Origin: Naegleria gruberi
Taxonomy: Eukaryota
DNA: 64,000 nt
Assembly (NCBI GenBank): GCA_000004985.1
Contig: GG738858.1
Strand: one strand, 5' to 3'
Shown here: positions 29,269-37,389 of the stretch, in pieces
Position numbering within the stretch: position 1 is the first letter of the stretch
Layout of the letters: every line of letters begins with the position of its first letter
Notes under the pieces: generated by a model
Told to the model about the DNA's origin: nothing
What the model saw: only the letters and a program-made list of their open reading frames with translations
The model's database searches: none
Made by a program: the position numbers and the translations under genes

Positions 29269-30652
29269 ATGTGGAAAGGTTGGAATGATCTTGTGGGCAC
29301 AGTGACTGGTGGAAATCATCACACCTCTACGGAAAATAGTGAAGAAAGTGAGGCATCAAATGAAGCAACAAATAATTCCTCCTCCGTACCATCATCAGAA
29401 TATTACACCAAAGATGATTTTGAATTGATCAATAATAAGGAAGATGCAGAAATACATTTAGTTATTTTAATTGCAGGAATGGGTGCTAGAAAGGGACATT
29501 ACCTTTCCGATTCACTTCTTGTTCCTTTTGGTAAATGGTTTGATATTAACAAGTGTCAACAAGCAATGAAAGAAGAAGTTTCCAATTGTTTCAAATCTTA
29601 TGCAAATGATCAGGTTAAAAAGAGATCTCCTCATATTTTGATTCGATCAATTGATTATTGTTCAACTGTTAGAGAAGAAGGAGGTTATAATGAAAAATTG
29701 AATCTTATTTCAATGAAATCAGGTGTTCAATTCCTTCGTTTAATTGCCAATGAATCAATGATTGATGTTTTAATGTATAATAGTGAAAAAATCAAACAAC
29801 AAATGCAAACTGTAAGTGTCAGGAATTGTTGAAAATTATATTGATGAATTACATTACAGACTGCTGTCAAACAAATTAATGAAATATTTGAGGAATTTAA
29901 GGATGTTCCAATCAAATCAGTTTCATTTGTTGGACATTCACTTGGTTCTGTTCTTGCCTTTGATATTCTTTATCAACATCAAGAATCTGGAAATACTCTT
30001 TTAAAGATGAATCCTAATAGATGCTTTTTAGTTGGAAGTCCACTTGGTTTGTTTTTGACAATGTCAGTTCAAACAACCAACCAATATTTAGAAGCATTCC
30101 ATTGTGTTAATCCTCAAACAAATAAGAAACAATTATTGAAGGAAATTGATGTTTATCACTTGTACCATCCTTATGACCCTGTTGCTTATAGATTGGATCC
30201 TCATTTAGATTCTAGATTTGGAAAACATGATCCTCATAGCTGTATGTTGTTATTTCACATTCTGATTTGTTAATTATTCAATAGTGGAGTATTTTGCTAG
30301 AAGATTTAATCCAAATCATTATGTCAATCAATTCAATAACTATGTAAGTAACACTTTAAAATAGATTATTCGAAACAATTTTCATTAGAAAGCTAAGATA
30401 TTTGGAAATCAAGAAAAGATTGATGAAGAATTAAGTGAACTCCTTAAACAATATGAAATGTATGTTAATTTTGAGAATAATTTATCTAACTTTCTTTATA
30501 GTATTGATTATTGCCTTCCAGTAAACTCTGAGCTTGTTATTAATGAGTATTTGAGTGCTGGTGATGTACATTTGAAATATTGGAACAATACTGAAGTTAT
30601 TTGTTTCATTTTAGAGAAAATGAATTTGATTTCTGCCAACAAATCTGAATAA
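29269..30652 (+). CDS. DDHD-domain phospholipase A1-like protein (PA-PLA1/SEC23IP family). Four exons: 29269..29811, 29860..30244, 30288..30346, 30392..30652. Introns of 48, 43 and 45 nt.
   Basis: Lipase serine motif FVGHSLGSVLAFDIL in exon 2. DDHD-domain end IDYCLPVNSELVINEYLSAGDVHLKYW in exon 4. Donors GTAAGT/GTATGT/GTAAGT with acceptors ACAG/ATAG/TTAG, and phases are consistent. Confidence 0.65.
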
Positions 30653-30704
30653 AATCCGCCAGCTATTTTGTACATCAGCTTCCTAGTTGTATTTACTTTT
30701 CAGT

Positions 30705-32358
30705 CTACTTTTTTGATCGTTTTTCTGACATTACTCCCAATCTATAACCAAGAAGTAAAAGTAAAAAGTGTTCATCAGCTTTGATGTTATTCTTTGCATC
30801 AATAAAGAGCTGACGAATTTCATCATCTGTTCTACACATTTCAGCGAGCATTGAAGAGTAATGTTGAAGGGAACTATTAGTAAATGAGATACATTGCTCA
30901 TTTTGATTTTGAGGAGGTGGTGGAGGTGGTGGATTATTAGTTAAATTAGTTGTGGTTGGATGGGAGGTAGATTCTGAAAGGAATGAAGATTTGGAATTAA
31001 CATTAAAACCAAACGAAGATGGTAAATTTTGTGTTCTTTCTTCTTTTTCTGCGAACACTGGAAGGTGATTACTTGTCGGTTCATCTCCTCCCAAATTCGA
31101 AAGTGATGGAAGTACTAAAAATCCTGATTGACTATTATCAAAAAGAAAAGATCCTCCACTGTTGGTATTATCCAAAAAACTCTTTTTCAAAAATGAAAAA
31201 TTACTATTACTGGCATCGTTATTCATTCCATGATCTAACAGGGACGATTCATGCTCCTTTTCCACATGAGAATTATGCAACTCATAAATTGAAGGTATCG
31301 AATTTGAGTGGGCATTTGAGTGAAAATTCCAATTATTAAAACCTATTGAATTACTTCTCGAACTACAACTTTGTTCCATTGAATTACTATTGGATTGTTG
31401 TGTATGATGTTTAACTTCATTGAGGTTGTTGAGGTTATTGTTATTGAGATTTTCACTTATTACCTCAACGTTCTTAACACTAACGGTTTCAGGTGTTTCT
31501 TCCTTAACAGGAGAAGTTTCAATATTAGATGTAGTGCTCTTCTTCTTTTTCTTTCCAGTTTTCTGAGTTGTTTCTTGAGGTGTTGGTTCTGTTACCTCTT
31601 TTGTTTCTTTTATTTCTGGTGTTTCTTTTGGAGGAGGCAACAGTTCATCTCCTTTTTTAATTTGTAATCTGTACTTTTGAAGGTGACTCTTAATATGATC
31701 AGTCTGTTAGAAAAATTGATTTGTTAAATTGTTAAATTAACTCTTTTGAAATACATACCGTTACACGAGAAACACCCATTAAATTCTTGATTGCTTTAGG
31801 GGCAGCATTATCAAGTCCCAACACAGAAACAGCTTCCACAAATGATTGATGTAATTCATTGGTCCATGATAATCTTTGTTTTTTGTTTTTAGCCTGAAGA
31901 TCTTCAGAATCACCCGATGAAACAGAAGGAGAAACTGTTGCTTCAACTGTTCTCTTTTTCTTATCATCGGATGATGATAATTGATCATAAGAGGAGTTGG
32001 GTAGTGATTTTGATTTTCTCTTTGTTTTAGATTCCTTCTTATTTGACTTTGTAGAGTTATTGTTATTTATATTATTACTCACAATACTATTGGTACTAGT
32101 GCTTGTTTGTTGTTGTTGTTGTTGAAGGCTACTGGAAGAGGAGGTAGTACTCATTGATGACGAGGCTCCTCCATATGAATCAGAGTTATTATTATTCATC
32201 ATATTCATATTATTATTATTATTATTATTGAGTACATTATTAGTAGCTACCACTCCTACAACTCCTTGGTGATGCTGATGATGAGCTGACTGATGTTGGT
32301 GCTGCACTTGTTGTGAGGAGATTGTTTGTTGCGGAACAAGCAGAGGTGGTTTTTGCAT
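30705..32358 (-). CDS. Myb-like SHAQKYF/GARP-class DNA-binding protein with Gln/Asn/Ser-rich flanks. Exons 32358..31759 and 31703..30705 (minus strand); 55-nt intron 31704..31758.
   Basis: Myb repeat RLSWTNELHQSFVEAVSVLGLDNAAPKAIKNLMGVSRVT, joined across GTATGT..AACAG to TDHIKSHLQKYRLQIKK (the SHLQKYR signature). The upstream frame is closed by TGA; 32358 is the first ATG. Confidence 0.65.
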
Positions 32359-32686
32359 TTTTTGTTCTAATTTGTACAACAAGCTTCATGCTAAAGCTTT
32401 GGGAATGAAGACTGAACATATATTGGTGAAAGAGGTCATTGATCAAACAAATACGTTACGTTAAGTCACTACACACGATGTCTATTGACTTTGTATTGGT
32501 AGTGAGCTTTTTATTCGGAGAGGTTACTCCTTTTGAGAAGAAAGAGCTTATTGGAGTGATTGTGGCAGGGAAATAACTTGAAGGATTGTAGTATTTTAAC
32601 AAGGGTGAAAATTATTTGATATTCCAATATAGTTCTGTAAGGACTATGGAGATAACGGTTTATAAAAATTTTTAGAATCGCAATAC

Positions 32687-34598
32687 TTACTTTTGGTTGA
32701 GAATAAAGGTCCTAAAAGGATGAATTTGAGAATCTGTAGTATTGGAAGAAGGAAAATCCACACTCTGTTGTTCAAACCTATCAGGATTGAATTGATTTGA
32801 TTGTTTTCCCCAAACTCTAATATCTGAATTCAATAAATTAAAAAGAATGAGAAGTTTTGAACTCTTTGGAATATTGTAATGACTTCTACTAGTATTTGGA
32901 AGAGGTTTTCCACTTCCAACTCTACAACTTTCCAAAGCTTCACCTGCATATGTAAATACTGGTGCTGCCAACCTGAATGTTTCTTGCACAACTCTGTTGC
33001 AATATTTAAATTTGTATTTAAAAGTTCTGAATAGGACAGTCTTGTCCTCTCTTTGAGAGAAATTCTCGTCAACTTCTTGTTGGACTAATTGTTGATACTC
33101 AGGATTTAGAGATAAGTAATGAAGAGCTCGTGTCACATATAATAAAACATGTTCTTGTCCGTCACAAAATGCTCTACTATTAGCTGGCAGTTGTAATTTA
33201 CAAATGGATGGGATTGGAAGAGGTAGATTAATAGTTGATTCTTTCTTGTTTTTAGATGATCTCTTGAACATGGGTAATAGTGTTCTCTTAGGTTGAAGTA
33301 GTGAAATACTCCTACTAAGGCAGGATTTCAATAATTTCATTAAAATATTCTTTTGTTGATTGGATGATTCAAAACTAGTCAAATTCGATGTGGGACTGAT
33401 TTTTGTGGAATTATCTGGGGACTCTGGCTTGCATACTGCCTCTGTAATATTAGAAAGCAATGAAGAGAGGTAATCATCAATATTAACGGACACAAATTTT
33501 TGTGAATGTCTTTGTTCTTCGAGAACAAGACTCTCCATGCTCGATGTTACCTCTTCATTGAATAACTCCATCCAGGATGTAGTAAGTTGAGTTAAATTTT
33601 CATTCAAAATTTTCTCAAAGTTGTTTGGATCCAAAGTATTTAAAATATCTTCTTCATCCAATGATTCTAATCCATTATGAAATTTGGTAGAGATTAGATT
33701 CATATTAGTGACATGCCTATCCCTACAGTCACTAAAATTATGTTTGAGTTTTGGATTATTAACAATCTCAAAATATGTATTGGAATCACTATTGCGCTTG
33801 TTAATAAAATTGTGCTGAAATATTAACATACCTAGTTATTAAATAATTATCAAGAAATAAACTAAGTCTCCACATACTACAACCAAACATTTGAGATTTC
33901 AATATTTGATATTTTGGAAAGAGGAACACATTGTCCAATTTTTGTTGATAGTCCCAAGCAAATTTACAATTCTTGCAGGGATAATATCCCACACAATCAT
34001 TCAGCAATTTTGTCATCCAAATCTTGCACCAATAACAAGAGCAAGATTGATAACTTGGATCTTCCATTGAAAGGAATGTAGCCATATTATTTTGTCTTCT
34101 TTTGTACTTATTTTGCAAGCTGTTAAGAAAAGAAGTAGAACTCATAGCTCGTGTTAAACTTGGCTTATTGGCATCATTATTGTAGATAACAACACCTTCA
34201 TCAGGATTAAATTGATAACTATGTTTTTGATATTTAAAAAGAGGTGAATCATCTTCTTCGTTACTACTTGTACTACTACTATCAGATGATGAGGTCGGAG
34301 ATGATGGATGGTAATTATTTGGTTGAACATTTGCAGGATCATAATTTTGGGAAGGAATATTATTGGGAGTTGGAGGTATTTGATTATTACTAGCATCTTC
34401 GTTATGATACAAATCAATATTGGAAATATTTGAAAAATAGGGCCTGTTGAAAAATCGTAAGGTAAAATAGTGGAAATGTGAATAGCCTGGCAGATGCGTA
34501 GCTTTACTAATAGTTCTCACATGTTTTCCATAAATATAAACAATTATAAGAGCCAATATGTTCAATAGAACAAAACAGGCTGCAACAAAAACCAACAT
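32687..34598 (-). CDS. Cytochrome P450-like protein with an N-terminal membrane anchor. Exons 34598..33878 and 33831..32687; 46-nt intron 33832..33877 (phase 1). The heme-binding Cys loop was not identifiable.
   Basis: N-terminal anchor MLVFVAACFVLLNILALIIVYIYG. J/K-helix region LSLNPEYQQLVQQEVD. ExxR motif VVQETFRL. PERF motif FNPDRF. After IHPF the expected FGxGxRxCxG is replaced by RTFILNQK and then a stop. The splice (GTATGT..AACTAG) joins ...SQMFGC|S|MLIFQHNF. Confidence 0.55.
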
Positions 34599-35472: not shown

Positions 35473-37389
35473 ATGAGAGCATCATCACACTTGCTTAAAC
35501 AACACTGCTCCTCCAAACGAGCATCAGGTAAAAAACTGTTGAGTAATACTGTTGCTTCTGTACTTGGTACAACAGCAAATGGCAGAGCCTTGTCAAGTAC
35601 CATTGTATCATCATCAATCAAGAATAATTTATTTGCCAACAAGAATAATTTATATAACAAACCAAATCATTCCAAGAGAAGCTTTTCGACAAGTTTATTG
35701 TCCAGAAATGAAGAATCTATGGAAGAAGAACCAATCGAAAGAGAAGTTATGGAATATGACGTTGTAATTGTTGGTGCAGGTCCATCTGGTTTATCTTGTG
35801 CAATTAAATTAAAACAATTGGCACAAGAATCGGGAAGTGATATTAGTGTATGTGTTTTGGAAAAGGGACAAGAAGTTGGATCTCATCTCTTATCAGGTGC
35901 ATGTATGGAAACACATTCACTTGAAGAATTATTCCCAAATTTCAGAGAACTTGATGTACCTTTCTATACACCTGCCACAAAGGATAGAATGTTGTTTTTG
36001 ACAGAGAAGAGAGCATTACCTTTACCAACAATTTCCGAAATGAATAATCATGGTAATTACATTGTTAGTTTGGGTCAAATTGCCAAATGGTTATCTGAAC
36101 AAGCAGAAGCTTTAGGAGTTGATATTTTACCAGGTTTTTCTGCTGATCAAGTCGTTTATGCTGATGAAAATAATGATAGAGTCATTGGTGTCATCACAAA
36201 GGATGTTGGTATCGGAAAGGATGGAAAGAGAAAGGACAATTTTGAACCAGGTATTATGCTTCAAGCAAGACAAACAATTTTCTCTGAAGGATGTAGAGGA
36301 TCACTCACTAAAACTCTTTATGCCAATCAGAAATTTAAATTGAGAGAAAATTGCACACCACAAACTTTTGCTCTCGGAGTTAAAGAATTATGGGAATTTC
36401 CAGAAGATCACCCAACATTTGACAAGGGACTTATTACACACAGTGTTGGTTATCCATTAGATGCTCACACTTATGGTGGTTCATTCATGTATCATTTCAA
36501 TGCTGATGGTGCCAATAGAGTTGCTCTTGGTTTAGTTACTGCATTAGATTATGAAAATCCAACTCTCAGTCCATATAATGAATTCCAAAAACTTAAACAT
36601 CATCCAGAATTTAAGAAAGTTCTCGAAGGTGGTAAATGCATTTCATATGGAGCTAGAACTCTCGTTGAAGGTGGTATTCAAGCTCTTCCAAAACTTTCAT
36701 TCCCAGGTGGTGTTTTAATTGGTGATACTGCTGGTTTCTTGAACGTTCCAAAGATCAAGGGTATTCACACAGCCATGAAATCTGGTATTTTGGGAGCTGA
36801 AAGTGTTTTTGAAGCTCTTACAAAGGATCAAGTTGAAGCAAGTACATTCCAAGAAAGATTCAAGAGTTCTTGGTTATACAACGAACTCTACAAGGAAAGA
36901 AATATTAGATCCTATTTCAAATATGGTCTCTATCCTGGTCTTTTATTGGCTGGTGTTGATTCAATTGTTTTTCGTGGAAAGACACCATGGACTGTCAAGA
37001 TGGAAACTTTAGATAATGAACATACCAAACCAATTTCTGAAGTGAAAAAGATTGAATATCCAAAACCAGATGGTGTTATCAGTTTCGATTTGTTGACTAA
37101 TCTCCAACGTTCTGGAACCAACCATAATCACGATCAACCAGCTCACTTAAAGTTGAAGGATGATTCCATACCTGTAAATGTTAACCTCAAAGTTTATGGT
37201 GGTCCTGAACAATACTTCTGTCCTGCCCGTGTGTATGAATTTATTCCAGATGAACAAGGAAATCAAAAGCTCAAGATTAATGCCCAAAATTGTCTCCACT
37301 GTAAGGCATGTGACATTAAGGATCCAAAGCAAAATATTAACTGGACTGTCCCTGAAGGTACTGGAGGTCCATCCTATCTTATTATGTAA
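35473..37389 (+). CDS. ETFDH: Electron-transfer flavoprotein:ubiquinone oxidoreductase (ETF-QO), mitochondrial, 638 aa, single exon.
   Basis: N-terminal presequence. FAD-binding DVVIVGAGPSGLSCAIKL. C-terminal 4Fe-4S region CPARVYEF...NCLHCKACDIKDP. Overall ETF-QO collinearity. Confidence 0.9.
   Translation: MRASSHLLKQHCSSKRASGKKLLSNTVASVLGTTANGRALSSTIVSSSIKNNLFANKNNLYNKPNHSKRSFSTSLLSRNEESMEEEPIEREVMEYDVVIVGAGPSGLSCAIKLKQLAQESGSDISVCVLEKGQEVGSHLLSGACMETHSLEELFPNFRELDVPFYTPATKDRMLFLTEKRALPLPTISEMNNHGNYIVSLGQIAKWLSEQAEALGVDILPGFSADQVVYADENNDRVIGVITKDVGIGKDGKRKDNFEPGIMLQARQTIFSEGCRGSLTKTLYANQKFKLRENCTPQTFALGVKELWEFPEDHPTFDKGLITHSVGYPLDAHTYGGSFMYHFNADGANRVALGLVTALDYENPTLSPYNEFQKLKHHPEFKKVLEGGKCISYGARTLVEGGIQALPKLSFPGGVLIGDTAGFLNVPKIKGIHTAMKSGILGAESVFEALTKDQVEASTFQERFKSSWLYNELYKERNIRSYFKYGLYPGLLLAGVDSIVFRGKTPWTVKMETLDNEHTKPISEVKKIEYPKPDGVISFDLLTNLQRSGTNHNHDQPAHLKLKDDSIPVNVNLKVYGGPEQYFCPARVYEFIPDEQGNQKLKINAQNCLHCKACDIKDPKQNINWTVPEGTGGPSYLIM

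What the first reader, a model, noticed from the sequence alone, without database searches (positions are those of the whole stretch)
32687..34598. Cytochrome P450 fold without a recognisable heme-thiolate loop
The membrane anchor, the J/K helices, ExxR (VVQETFRL) and PERF (FNPDRF) are all present and correctly spaced. About 22 residues after PERF, where PFGxGxRxCxG should lie, the sequence reads IHPFRTFILNQK and then stops. I could not find a downstream exon encoding the Cys ligand. This is either a cysteine-less pseudo-P450 (inactive, or a new function) or there is a missing 3' exon or sequence error.
Basis: seen in the sequence. Interest (0 to 1): 0.5.

Follow-up and report, generated by a model that had tools for sequence, protein, structure and literature searches.

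The report
Conserved cysteine-less P450-fold protein in Naegleria
This is an apparently unannotated three-exon Naegleria gruberi gene for a membrane-anchored cytochrome-P450-fold protein that has lost the heme-binding cysteine and the other conserved heme-associated residues yet is kept under purifying selection in three amoeba species, making it a eukaryotic counterpart of the heme-free or non-canonical P450 homologues so far described in bacteria.

Summary
The P450 motifs are at the stated coordinates, but the reported stop is not the gene's end. The TAA lies inside a GTAAGT donor of a 47-nt intron. A third exon (32643..32511) adds the L-helix and C-terminus, giving a 665-aa product. The annotated Willaertia magna orthologue and a metagenomic Naegleria-like orthologue have introns at the same position and phase.

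The new exon does not restore the cysteine. All three orthologues read PFRxxxLNQ(N/D)PYRxILEYQ where FxxGxRxCxG belongs. No Cys-pocket motif occurs in any frame of 30501..33200.

Homology to P450s is firm: Pfam 35.9 bits; profile-profile 99.9 %, E 2.8e-33, β1 to L-helix; all top fold matches are P450s. Fold-stabilising columns (ExxR, PERF) are kept. Heme/O2-associated columns (C-helix W..R, I-helix Thr→His, β1-4 Arg, Cys-loop G/R/C/G) are all replaced.

Synonymous sites are saturated while pN is about 0.17, including the degenerate Cys-loop, so it is not a pseudogene.

It is most likely a heme-free, non-catalytic P450-fold protein, functionally like bacterial EryCII-type activators but derived independently from eukaryotic microsomal P450s. 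Alternative heme ligation is not excluded. I rate it a new variant of a known kind, of moderate interest.

The parts
33832..34598 (-). Exon 1 (ATG at 34598). Encodes the N-terminal signal-anchor helix, a conserved hinge (RTISKATHxPGxSxFHY), a low-complexity linker, the Cys-rich insert, and the start of the P450 domain (…KLDNVFLFPKYQILKSQMFGCSMWRLSLFLDNYLIT).
   Evidence: Aligns to W. magna P0002 and to L003. AF2 pLDDT is about 86-96 for the first 40 residues of the orthologue (anchor helix 2-33).
34530..34598 (-). Codons 1-23, MLVFVAACFVLLNILALIIVYIY: a single N-terminal transmembrane signal-anchor, as in microsomal P450s.
   Evidence: It is the only 19-mer with Kyte-Doolittle mean of about 3.1. 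Predicted as a helix spanning residues 2-33 in the orthologue model.
33966..34043 (-). Cys-rich insert, aa 186-211 (CSCYWC…C…CKNCKF), with five Cys invariant in the three species. It lies between the hinge and the P450 core and is absent from canonical P450s.
   Evidence: Invariant columns C186, C188, C191, C208, C211. No Pfam family matches. The model confidence there is low.
33789..33831 (-). Intron 1, 43 nt, GTATGT…CAATAG, phase 2.
   Evidence: W. magna has a 44-nt intron at the same codon (ACTAG|gtatgt) and L003 a 40-nt intron. With this acceptor the junction aligns to P0002 without a gap.
32691..33788 (-). Exon 2: most of the P450 domain (B to K' helices, β-sheets, meander) and the first part of the degenerate Cys-loop.
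   Evidence: P0001 (ENA ORF call) is identical over this exon.
33146..33169 (-). I-helix motif FCDGQEHV (aa 463-470) in place of the canonical (A/G)Gx(D/E)T(T/S). Gly and Glu are kept; the oxygen-activating Thr is replaced by His in all three species.
   Evidence: canonical A307→D/E, G308 kept, T311→H.
32972..32983 (-). K-helix ExxR (ETFR, aa 525-528), kept.
32774..32791 (-). PERF/meander motif FNPDRF (aa 589-594), kept.
32634..32719 (-). Degenerate 'Cys-pocket' PFRTFILNQ-N-PYR (aa 613-625), interrupted by intron 2. The residue aligned to the axial Cys is Asn622, whose codon AA|T is split by the intron (Asp in W. magna).
   Evidence: canonical G439→I/V/N, R441→N, C443→N/N/D, G445→Y. hhalign instead places a 4-residue gap over CxGx. 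Neither alignment gives a Cys.
32644..32690 (-). Intron 2, 47 nt, GTAAGT…CCATAG, phase 2.
   Evidence: There are same-position introns of 51 nt in W. magna and 39 nt in L003. The intron sequences are not conserved while the flanking exons are.
32511..32643 (-). Exon 3: L-helix (RTILEYQIIFTLVKILQSFKLF) and a short C-terminus, with stop TAA at 32511..32513. It is about 20 residues shorter than canonical P450s between the L-helix and the C-terminal strand.
   Evidence: The L-helix is predicted with pLDDT of about 95 in the orthologue (block 72). For codons 605-650, pN is 0.17 against pS 0.89.

Best explanation
Shown: the locus is an intact three-exon gene of Naegleria gruberi (34598..32511, minus strand, 665 aa), apparently unannotated. 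It encodes a P450-superfamily protein with a single N-terminal hydrophobic helix of the microsomal-P450 signal-anchor type. The axial cysteine and the other columns canonically tied to heme or oxygen chemistry have been replaced. The fold-stabilising ExxR/PERF core is retained, and the protein is under purifying selection in at least three heterolobosean species.

Inferred: it no longer binds heme as a thiolate and is not a monooxygenase. Most likely it is heme-free and uses the P450 scaffold non-catalytically, as a membrane-tethered (by analogy with microsomal P450s, ER) binding, scaffolding or regulatory subunit. This would be analogous to the bacterial P450-derived glycosyltransferase-activating factors (EryCII/DesVIII). 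The lineage-specific N-terminal elaborations (a long low-complexity linker and a conserved CxCxWC…CxxC insert) are candidate partner- or metal-binding surfaces. It arose independently of the bacterial cases, from a eukaryotic microsomal-type P450.
For: Gene model:
- GT-AG introns of 43 and 47 nt join three ORFs in phase.
- The annotated W. magna orthologue P0002 has introns at the same two codon positions. The L003 orthologue has them too, plus one extra intron.

Homology and fold:
- Pfam PF00067 scores 35.9 bits for N. gruberi and 45.7 bits for L003, against a cut-off of 22.8.
- hhalign of the three orthologues against 16 canonical P450s gives 99.9 %, E 2.8e-33, over residues 241-651 versus 76-472 of 500.
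- The AF2 model of the orthologue has pTM 0.64. The 50 listed Foldseek PDB matches are all P450s, aligned over about 465-530 columns.

Selective loss of heme/O2-associated columns. Of the 33 columns at least 80 % conserved in canonical P450s:
- Kept in at least two of three orthologues: I-helix G, J-helix P and E, ExxR, IPK, WG, FxPxR, the Cys-loop F, the C-terminal R.
- Replaced: C-helix W and R, PxF, I-helix A and T (T→H), β1-4 R, and G, R, C, G, F, A of the Cys-pocket and L-helix start.
- That these replaced positions contact heme propionates, iron or O2 is established P450 structural knowledge, not tested here.

Selection:
- N. gruberi vs L003 gives pS 0.78-0.89 (saturated) against pN 0.17 in the I-helix→C-terminus. 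The 46 codons around the former Cys-loop show the same.
- Reading frames are intact in three species.

Precedent:
- EryCII is a heme-free P450 fold. It keeps the I, J, K, K', L helices and C-terminal β-sheets, lacks the C helix, and uses a new N-terminal helix to bind its partner (PMC3391682).
- The former Cys-loop is the low-confidence part of the otherwise confident C-terminal half of the model (pLDDT about 50-69), reminiscent of the elevated B-factors of EryCII's empty pocket.
Against: - No experiment: heme content, expression and partners are all unknown.
- No RNA evidence was available for the N. gruberi splice junctions; support is comparative only.
- Native P450 homologues with non-Cys axial ligands do bind heme (Ser-ligated P450-G9, PMC11703216), so absence of Cys alone does not prove absence of heme.
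- The replacement residues are themselves strongly conserved and polar or metal-capable (C464, E468, H469, C544, Y624). That could indicate a new active or ligand site rather than an empty pocket.
- The structural model is of the W. magna orthologue, has mean pLDDT 63.6, and its coordinates could not be inspected.
- Only three species are known. Two further protein searches and two metagenome scans added none.
Confidence: 0.6

Rival explanations
1. It is a non-canonical hemoprotein. The P450 fold still binds heme but through another ligand: the Asn/Asp at the aligned axial position, the invariant Tyr624 two residues later (catalase-like tyrosinate), or the invariant I-helix His469 from the distal side. 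It would then carry out non-monooxygenase chemistry, as proposed for the bacterial ncCYP families.
For: - Bacterial ncCYPs without Cys exist, and at least one (Ser-ligated P450-G9) binds heme (PMC11703216).
- The residues replacing the Cys-loop and the I-helix Thr are invariant or nearly so across three species: N/D622, Y624, H469.
- The region is under purifying selection.
Against: - Not just Cys but the other conserved columns canonically linked to heme binding are replaced by non-basic residues: C-helix W/R, β1-4 R→G/S, Cys-loop R→N.
- Both glycines that shape the Cys-loop β-bulge are gone (their role is described in PMC3990721).
- The axial-aligned residue varies, Asn in two species and Asp in the third.
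- The loop has a one-residue insertion or a four-residue gap depending on the aligner.
Confidence: 0.17
2. The former heme pocket has been rebuilt into a different ligand or metal site, using C464/E468/H469 of the I-helix, S543-C544-R545 of β1-4 and Y624/R625. The protein would then be a heme-independent enzyme or a small-molecule (for example sterol or lipid) sensor rather than an inert scaffold. The CxCxWC…CxxC insert would bind a structural or redox metal.
For: - Cys, His, Glu and Tyr are invariant at positions that line the heme/O2 site in canonical P450s.
- Five Cys are invariant in the N-terminal insert.
- pN is as low in these segments as in the structural core.
Against: - This rests purely on residue identity. 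No distances could be measured because no coordinates were available.
- No family or motif match exists for the insert.
- Conserved polar residues may simply repack the cavity.
- The segment after the L-helix is about 20 residues shorter than in canonical P450s. By general P450 knowledge this is where the β4 hairpin/SRS6 contributes to substrate binding, which argues against a substrate site of the usual kind.
Confidence: 0.15
3. It is a decaying pseudogene or an assembly or sequence artefact of a once-canonical P450.
For: - Standard P450 surveys file hits with only one of the EXXR/CXG motifs as 'pseudo-P450s' and discard them (PMC7369989).
- The gene is not in the N. gruberi protein set held in the collection.
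Against: - Open frames of 665, 743 and 760 aa are intact in three species, with conserved intron positions.
- Synonymous sites are saturated while pN is 0.17-0.27.
- The Cys-less loop is itself about 70 % identical between N. gruberi and L003.
- An independent ENA contig gives the identical ORF.
Confidence: 0.03
4. It is a canonical P450 whose Cys-pocket is encoded by a further, undetected exon or alternative splice form.
For: No transcript data were available.
Against: - No Cys-pocket-like motif occurs in any frame of 30501..33200.
- Exon 3 follows directly with the L-helix, the element that comes immediately after the Cys-loop in every P450, leaving no room for an extra exon.
- The independent W. 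magna annotation has the same architecture.
- The next gene (Myb-type) starts about 150 bp downstream.
Confidence: 0.02

Closest known systems
Eukaryotic microsomal (class II, E-class) cytochromes P450, Pfam PF00067. Nearest solved relatives by sequence are CYP725A4, CYP3A5/3A7/3A4 and CYP1A1/1A2; by fold they are CYP102 (BM3), CYP3A4, CYP505 and CYP97.
   Same: - N-terminal hydrophobic signal-anchor followed by a hinge.
- Homology over the whole domain from β1 to the L-helix.
- ExxR, PERF, IPK and WG motifs are kept, along with the I-helix Gly and Glu.
- P450 fold in the model.
   Different: - No axial Cys. The Cys-loop G, R and G are lost.
- I-helix Thr→His.
- The C-helix W..R and β1-4 Arg are lost.
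- About 20 residues are missing after the L-helix.
- Roughly 160-240 extra residues: a low-complexity linker, a Cys-rich insert and insertions in the D-H helix region.
- The W. magna member fails the Pfam model altogether.
PDGAF: P450-derived glycosyltransferase-activating factors of actinomycetes (EryCII, DesVIII, AknT; PDB 2YJN)
   Same: - P450 fold without the Cys ligand and without heme.
- The C-terminal half (I, J, K, K', L helices, β-sheets) is well kept while the C-helix region is degenerate.
- An added N-terminal element serves the new function.
- Non-catalytic role (PMC3391682; PMC11703216).
- This is the best model for how the Naegleria protein may work.
   Different: - PDGAFs are bacterial, soluble, about 400 aa, and encoded next to their partner GT in biosynthetic clusters.
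- The Naegleria protein is eukaryotic, carries an N-terminal membrane-anchor helix, and is 665-760 aa.
- Its neighbours are a Myb-type gene and ETF-QO.
- Its nearest sequence relatives are eukaryotic microsomal CYPs. EryCII is not among the 60 best PDB sequence matches or the 50 listed fold matches.
- The origin is therefore independent.
Non-canonical CYPs (ncCYP families A-T; Nguy et al. 2024 preprint, PMC11703216)
   Same: Conserved P450 homologues with a non-Cys residue, or no predicted ligand, at the aligned axial position. They form families rather than one-off pseudogenes.
   Different: - The 880 ncCYPs are described as carried by bacteria (six phyla).
- Listed axial residues include Glu, Arg, Ser, Sec, Ala, Phe, Leu, Ile/Val or none. 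A search of the paper's text found no mention of Asn or asparagine.
- At least the Ser family binds heme. Here the other heme-associated columns are also gone.
'Pseudo-P450' hits in genome-wide CYPome surveys
   Same: Has EXXR but not CXG, which is exactly the operational definition used to set hits aside (PMC7369989).
   Different: Such hits are treated as non-functional and excluded. This one is full-length, spliced, orthologous across genera and under purifying selection.

Membership tests
Cytochrome P450 superfamily (PF00067) | Significant sequence homology to the P450 profile | tested here: met
   Pfam scores 35.9 bits for N. gruberi and 45.7 bits for L003, against a cut-off of 22.8. hhalign gives 99.9 %, E 2.8e-33, over about 410 residues. 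W. magna alone gives no Pfam hit.
Cytochrome P450 superfamily (PF00067) | P450 fold | tested here: met
   The AF2 model of orthologue P0002 has pTM 0.64. The 50 listed Foldseek PDB hits are all P450s (probability 1.00, TM on target about 0.5, about 465-530 aligned columns). Confidence is moderate, and the model is of the orthologue, not the N. gruberi protein.
Cytochrome P450 superfamily (PF00067) | K-helix ExxR and meander PERF (ERR triad) | tested here: met
   ETFR and FNPDRF are invariant in all three orthologues.
Cytochrome P450 superfamily (PF00067) | Cys-pocket FxxGxRxCxG with the invariant axial cysteine | tested here: not met
   The sequence is PFRTFILNQNPYR. Canonical G, R, C and G are replaced by I/V/N, N, N/N/D and Y. 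No such motif occurs in any frame of 30501..33200. The Cys is described as the only invariant residue of the motif (PMC3990721).
Cytochrome P450 superfamily (PF00067) | I-helix (A/G)Gx(D/E)T(T/S) oxygen-activation motif | tested here: not met
   The motif reads (D/E)GQEHV: Gly and Glu are kept, Thr→His, Thr/Ser→Val.
Cytochrome P450 superfamily (PF00067) | Heme-thiolate: 450-nm ferrous-CO complex | not testable with these tools
   This needs purified protein and spectroscopy.
PDGAF (EryCII/DesVIII-type GT activators) | P450 fold lacking the Cys ligand | tested here: met
   The PDGAF property is taken from PMC3391682.
PDGAF (EryCII/DesVIII-type GT activators) | Specific sequence relationship to the EryCII/DesVIII family | tested here: not met
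   The best PDB sequence matches are CYP725A4, CYP3A5/7/4, CYP1A1/2 and BM3. 2YJN is absent from the best 60 and from the 50 listed fold matches.
PDGAF (EryCII/DesVIII-type GT activators) | Encoded beside, and acting on, a partner glycosyltransferase | tested here: not met
   The neighbours are a Myb-type gene (downstream, syntenic in L003) and ETF-QO. W. magna neighbours are NUDIX and phytochelatin-synthase genes. A physical partner could not be tested.
ncCYP families (PMC11703216) | [quoted passage not shown] | tested here: met
   Asn, Asn, Asp in three orthologues.
ncCYP families (PMC11703216) | Membership of one of the 20 described (bacterial) families A-T | not tested
The families are reported from bacteria only, and the exhaustive profile search found no close relatives outside Heterolobosea.
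Unitary or decaying pseudogene | Frame disruptions or neutral evolution (pN about equal to pS) | tested here: not met
   ORFs are intact in three species. pN is 0.17-0.27 against pS 0.78-0.89.

The most novel reading that the evidence does not exclude
A conserved eukaryotic lineage has converted a microsomal P450 into something chemically new. One possibility is a hemoprotein with a ligand never seen in the P450 fold (tyrosinate, Asp or distal His). The other is a heme-independent metal or ligand site built from the invariant C464/E468/H469/C544/Y624 residues, coupled to a novel CxCxWC…CxxC metal-binding module. This would extend the recently proposed 'non-canonical CYP' concept from bacteria to eukaryotes.
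Probability: 0.3. Interest if true: 0.75.

Novelty: new variant of a known kind. Interest (0 to 1): 0.45.

Why it matters
The axial cysteine is regarded as the one invariant residue of the P450 superfamily. Survey pipelines discard hits that lack it as 'pseudo-P450s' (PMC3990721, PMC7369989).

Heme-free P450 folds (PDGAF) and Cys-less 'ncCYPs' are documented, but in the papers I could read they are reported from bacteria (PMC3391682, PMC11703216). This locus shows a eukaryotic P450 homologue with an N-terminal membrane-anchor helix that lost the thiolate and the other heme-associated residues. It has nevertheless been maintained by selection since before Naegleria and Willaertia diverged.

It offers three things:
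- An independent natural experiment on what the P450 scaffold can do without heme-thiolate chemistry.
- A concrete protein to express and test for heme or metal content.
- A correction to the N. gruberi gene set, where the gene appears to be missing.

The practical lesson is that a 'stop' at AAG|TAAGT in this genome is a splice donor.

Tried and rejected
1. My first model used a 100-nt intron 1 (646 aa). I replaced it with a 43-nt intron (665 aa) because that matches the W. magna intron size and aligns 19 extra residues without a gap.
I worked round this with exon-wise rows and the W. magna orthologue as first row.
With the C-terminal-domain profile it returned nothing at E ≤ 1e-8. This is a tool-side candidate-selection limit, not evidence of absence.
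4. Two metagenome DNA scans, using FC[DE]GQEH / PE[CY]QQLVQ and then the Cys-rich block patterns, found no further orthologues.
5. Exact look-up of the 665-aa and 646-aa models and of the exon-1 ORF found none in the collection.
6. Name look-up of the nearest canonical P450 hits gave no CYP-family names, so the parental CYP clan remains unassigned.
7. Pfam on the N-terminal 257 aa with the Cys-rich insert gave no family.
8. Four literature probes for Naegleria CYPomes or 'pseudoenzyme' P450s were uninformative. The useful leads came from 'pseudo-P450' and EryCII searches.
9. dN/dS as a ratio could not be computed for N. gruberi vs L003 because pS exceeds the Jukes-Cantor limit. I report pN and pS instead.
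10. A tRNA scan of the window found no genes.
Full report
**What is at the coordinates.**
The window is AT-rich (about 32 % GC). Its neighbouring ORFs are exact matches to Naegleria gruberi NEG-M proteins, for example ETF-ubiquinone oxidoreductase XP_002679260 at 35473..37389. These are a hydrophobic N-terminus, J/K helices with ExxR (VVQETFRL), PERF (FNPDRF), and about 19 residues later IHPFRTFILNQK followed by TAA. Pfam's P450 model matches above its gathering score (35.9 vs 22.8 bits, E 5e-9). The match covers only profile positions 274-394 of 462, so it ends before the Cys-pocket.

**The 'stop' is a splice donor.**
The sequence is …AACCAAAA|GTAAGTATTG…CCATAG|TCCTTACAGA…. Removing this 47-nt GT-AG intron (32690..32644) joins exon 2 in phase to a third exon (32643..32511). 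The junction reads …FILNQ-N-PYRTILEYQIIFTLVKILQSFKLFPCHNHSNKLFLLKRSNLSE*. A 43-nt intron (33831..33789) likewise joins the two ORFs, and the product is 665 aa.

Comparative evidence supports both junctions:
- The only full-length database relative is Willaertia magna KAL9649773 (P0002, 760 aa, 'hypothetical protein', 46 % identical over aligned positions).
- At its genomic locus, its CDS has introns of 44 and 51 nt at exactly the same two codon positions and phases.
- A 6.6-kb metagenome contig (L003) carries a third orthologue of 743 aa, about 58 % identical. Its introns of 40 and 39 nt lie at those positions, and it has one extra 39-nt intron in the I-helix.
- A nearby Myb-type gene in the window has a 55-nt intron, so introns this short are normal here.

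**The cysteine is still missing.**
The recovered exon encodes the L-helix, not a ligand. The three orthologues read:
- N. gruberi: IHPFRTFILNQNPYRTILEYQ
- L003: IFPFRTIVLNQNPYRTILEYQ
- W. magna: ITPFRNMNLNQDPYRNILEYQ

Canonical P450s have PF-xxGxRxCxGxxFAxxE at this place. MAFFT places Asn/Asn/Asp under the axial Cys. hhalign instead opens a 4-residue gap over CxGx. Neither gives a Cys. A six-frame motif scan of 30501..33200 finds no Cys-pocket-like sequence. The next gene, a Myb/SHAQKYF-type gene that is syntenic in L003, begins about 150 bp downstream.

**It is a true P450 homologue over the whole domain.**
- Profile-profile comparison of the three orthologues with 16 canonical P450s gives 99.9 % probability, E 2.8e-33. 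It aligns residues 241-651 to positions 76-472 of a 500-aa P450, from β1 to the L-helix.
- An AlphaFold2 model of the W. magna orthologue was the closest sequence the tool would accept. It has pTM 0.64 and mean pLDDT 63.6.
- The model is confident (pLDDT mostly about 85-95) over the anchor helix, β1, the I-K helices, the β-sheets and the L-helix. It is low over the insertions and over the former Cys-loop (about 50-69).
- The 50 listed Foldseek PDB matches are all P450s: BM3/CYP102, CYP3A4, CYP505, CYP97.
- By sequence, the nearest solved structures are eukaryotic microsomal P450s (CYP725A4, CYP3A5/7/4, CYP1A1/2) and BM3.

**What was kept and what was lost.**
I listed every column at least 80 % conserved among the 16 canonical P450s.
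- Kept in at least two of the three orthologues: the I-helix Gly, a J-helix Pro and Glu, V/E/R/L of ExxR, the Pro of IPK, WG, F-x-P-x-R of PERF, the Phe that opens the Cys-loop, and a C-terminal Arg.
- Replaced: the C-helix W…R and PxF, the I-helix Ala and the oxygen-activating Thr (→His in all three), the β1-4 Arg (→Gly/Ser), and G, R, C, G, F, A of the Cys-pocket and L-helix start.

By established P450 structural knowledge (my own knowledge plus PMC3990721), the kept set stabilises the fold (the ERR triad and meander). The lost set contacts heme iron, propionates or bound O2. The segment between the L-helix and the last strand is also about 20 residues shorter than normal. By general P450 knowledge this is where the β4 hairpin/SRS6 lies.

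**It is under selection.**
Between N. gruberi and L003, synonymous sites are saturated (pS 0.78 overall, 0.82-0.89 in the C-terminal domain). pN is 0.27 overall and 0.17 from the I-helix to the end. For the 46 codons around the degenerate Cys-loop and L-helix, pN is 0.17 against pS 0.89. Introns differ in length and sequence while the flanking exons are conserved. Frames are intact in all three species. A pseudogene or sequencing error is therefore excluded.

**Lineage-specific additions.**
Between the hinge (RTISKATHxPGxSxFHY) and the P450 core lies a low-complexity Ser/Asn/Pro-rich linker. After it comes a conserved Cys-rich block, CxCxWC…CxxC(K/R)F, with five invariant Cys. The block has no Pfam match and low model confidence.

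**Distribution.**
An exhaustive HMMER scan of 1.84 billion representatives found only fragments of these same genes (P0001, P0003, P0013, P0014). Below them the scores drop to ordinary Cys-containing P450s at E ≥ 5e-12. Further searches added nothing. The exact N. gruberi product is not in the 15-billion-protein collection, so the gene appears unannotated in NEG-M.

**Comparison with what is known.**
Survey pipelines call hits with only one of the EXXR/CXG motifs 'pseudo-P450s' and drop them (PMC7369989). Two documented classes lack the Cys.
- PDGAFs (EryCII, DesVIII). EryCII has a P450 fold without heme and keeps the I-L helices and C-terminal sheets. It lacks the C helix and has a new N-terminal helix. 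It stabilises and allosterically activates its glycosyltransferase (PMC3391682).
- The 20 'ncCYP' families. These comprise 880 sequences, described as bacterial. At least one binds heme through Ser (PMC11703216).

The Naegleria/Willaertia protein shares the pattern of the first class: C-terminal half kept, C-helix region lost, N-terminal elaboration. It is not a member of that class. It is eukaryotic, it carries an N-terminal membrane-anchor helix, no GT gene lies beside it in the window or at the W. magna locus, and it is closest to eukaryotic microsomal CYPs rather than to EryCII.

**Verdict.**
- The 'stop' and the 'no downstream exon' are wrong.
- The missing exon does not rescue the Cys.
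- The best-supported reading is a selectively maintained, heme-thiolate-free and probably heme-free P450-fold protein with an N-terminal membrane anchor and a non-catalytic role. It would be an independent eukaryotic analogue of PDGAFs (confidence about 0.6).
- Alternative heme ligation (about 0.17) or a rebuilt ligand or metal site (about 0.15) remain open and are testable by simple spectroscopy and metal analysis.
- I rate it a new variant of a known kind, with interest 0.45.

Noticed in passing
window 33966..34043 (-), aa 186-211; L003 and L002 orthologous positions: There is a conserved Cys-rich insert, CxCxWC…CxxC(K/R)F, with five invariant cysteines, between the P450 hinge and the A-helix/β1. 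It is absent from canonical P450s, has no Pfam match and is poorly modelled. It could be a metal-binding knuckle or a partner interface.
   Followed up: partly
window 32511..34598 (-): The gene appears to be missing from the N. gruberi NEG-M protein set. Neither spliced model nor the exon-1 ORF is in the 15-billion-protein collection. The only record is a prokaryote-style ORF call (P0001) on an ENA 'metagenome' contig that encodes the N. gruberi ORF exactly (L001, ERZ929261).
   Followed up: partly
P0003 (W. magna KAL…, 388 aa, separate 141-kb contig): This second W. magna copy equals P0002 from about residue 228 onward but lacks the whole I-helix→β-sheet segment (…QQQQHQEEKIYKKYWGYESNCFNPDRF…). 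It may be a truncated paralogue, a haplotig or a mis-annotation.
   Followed up: no
window about 30705..32358 (-), intron 31704..31758; L003 5112..5552: A Myb/SHAQKYF-type gene with a long Asn/Gln/Ser-rich N-terminus lies immediately downstream on the same strand. It is syntenic in L003 (84 % identity over the Myb domain). The upstream neighbour (ETF-QO, 35473..37389, +) is not syntenic, and W. magna shows no synteny.
   Followed up: partly
L003 4419..4457: The metagenomic Naegleria-like orthologue has an extra 39-nt intron inside the I-helix (YYLIR|…|ALHYL). N. gruberi and W. magna lack it, so this is a recent intron gain or loss in a very short-intron genome.
   Followed up: no
window 32690..32644; L002 10183..10233; L003 4899..4937: In all three species the intron-2 donor is AA|GTAAGT. 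An unspliced transcript would therefore terminate immediately (AAG TAA).
   Followed up: yes
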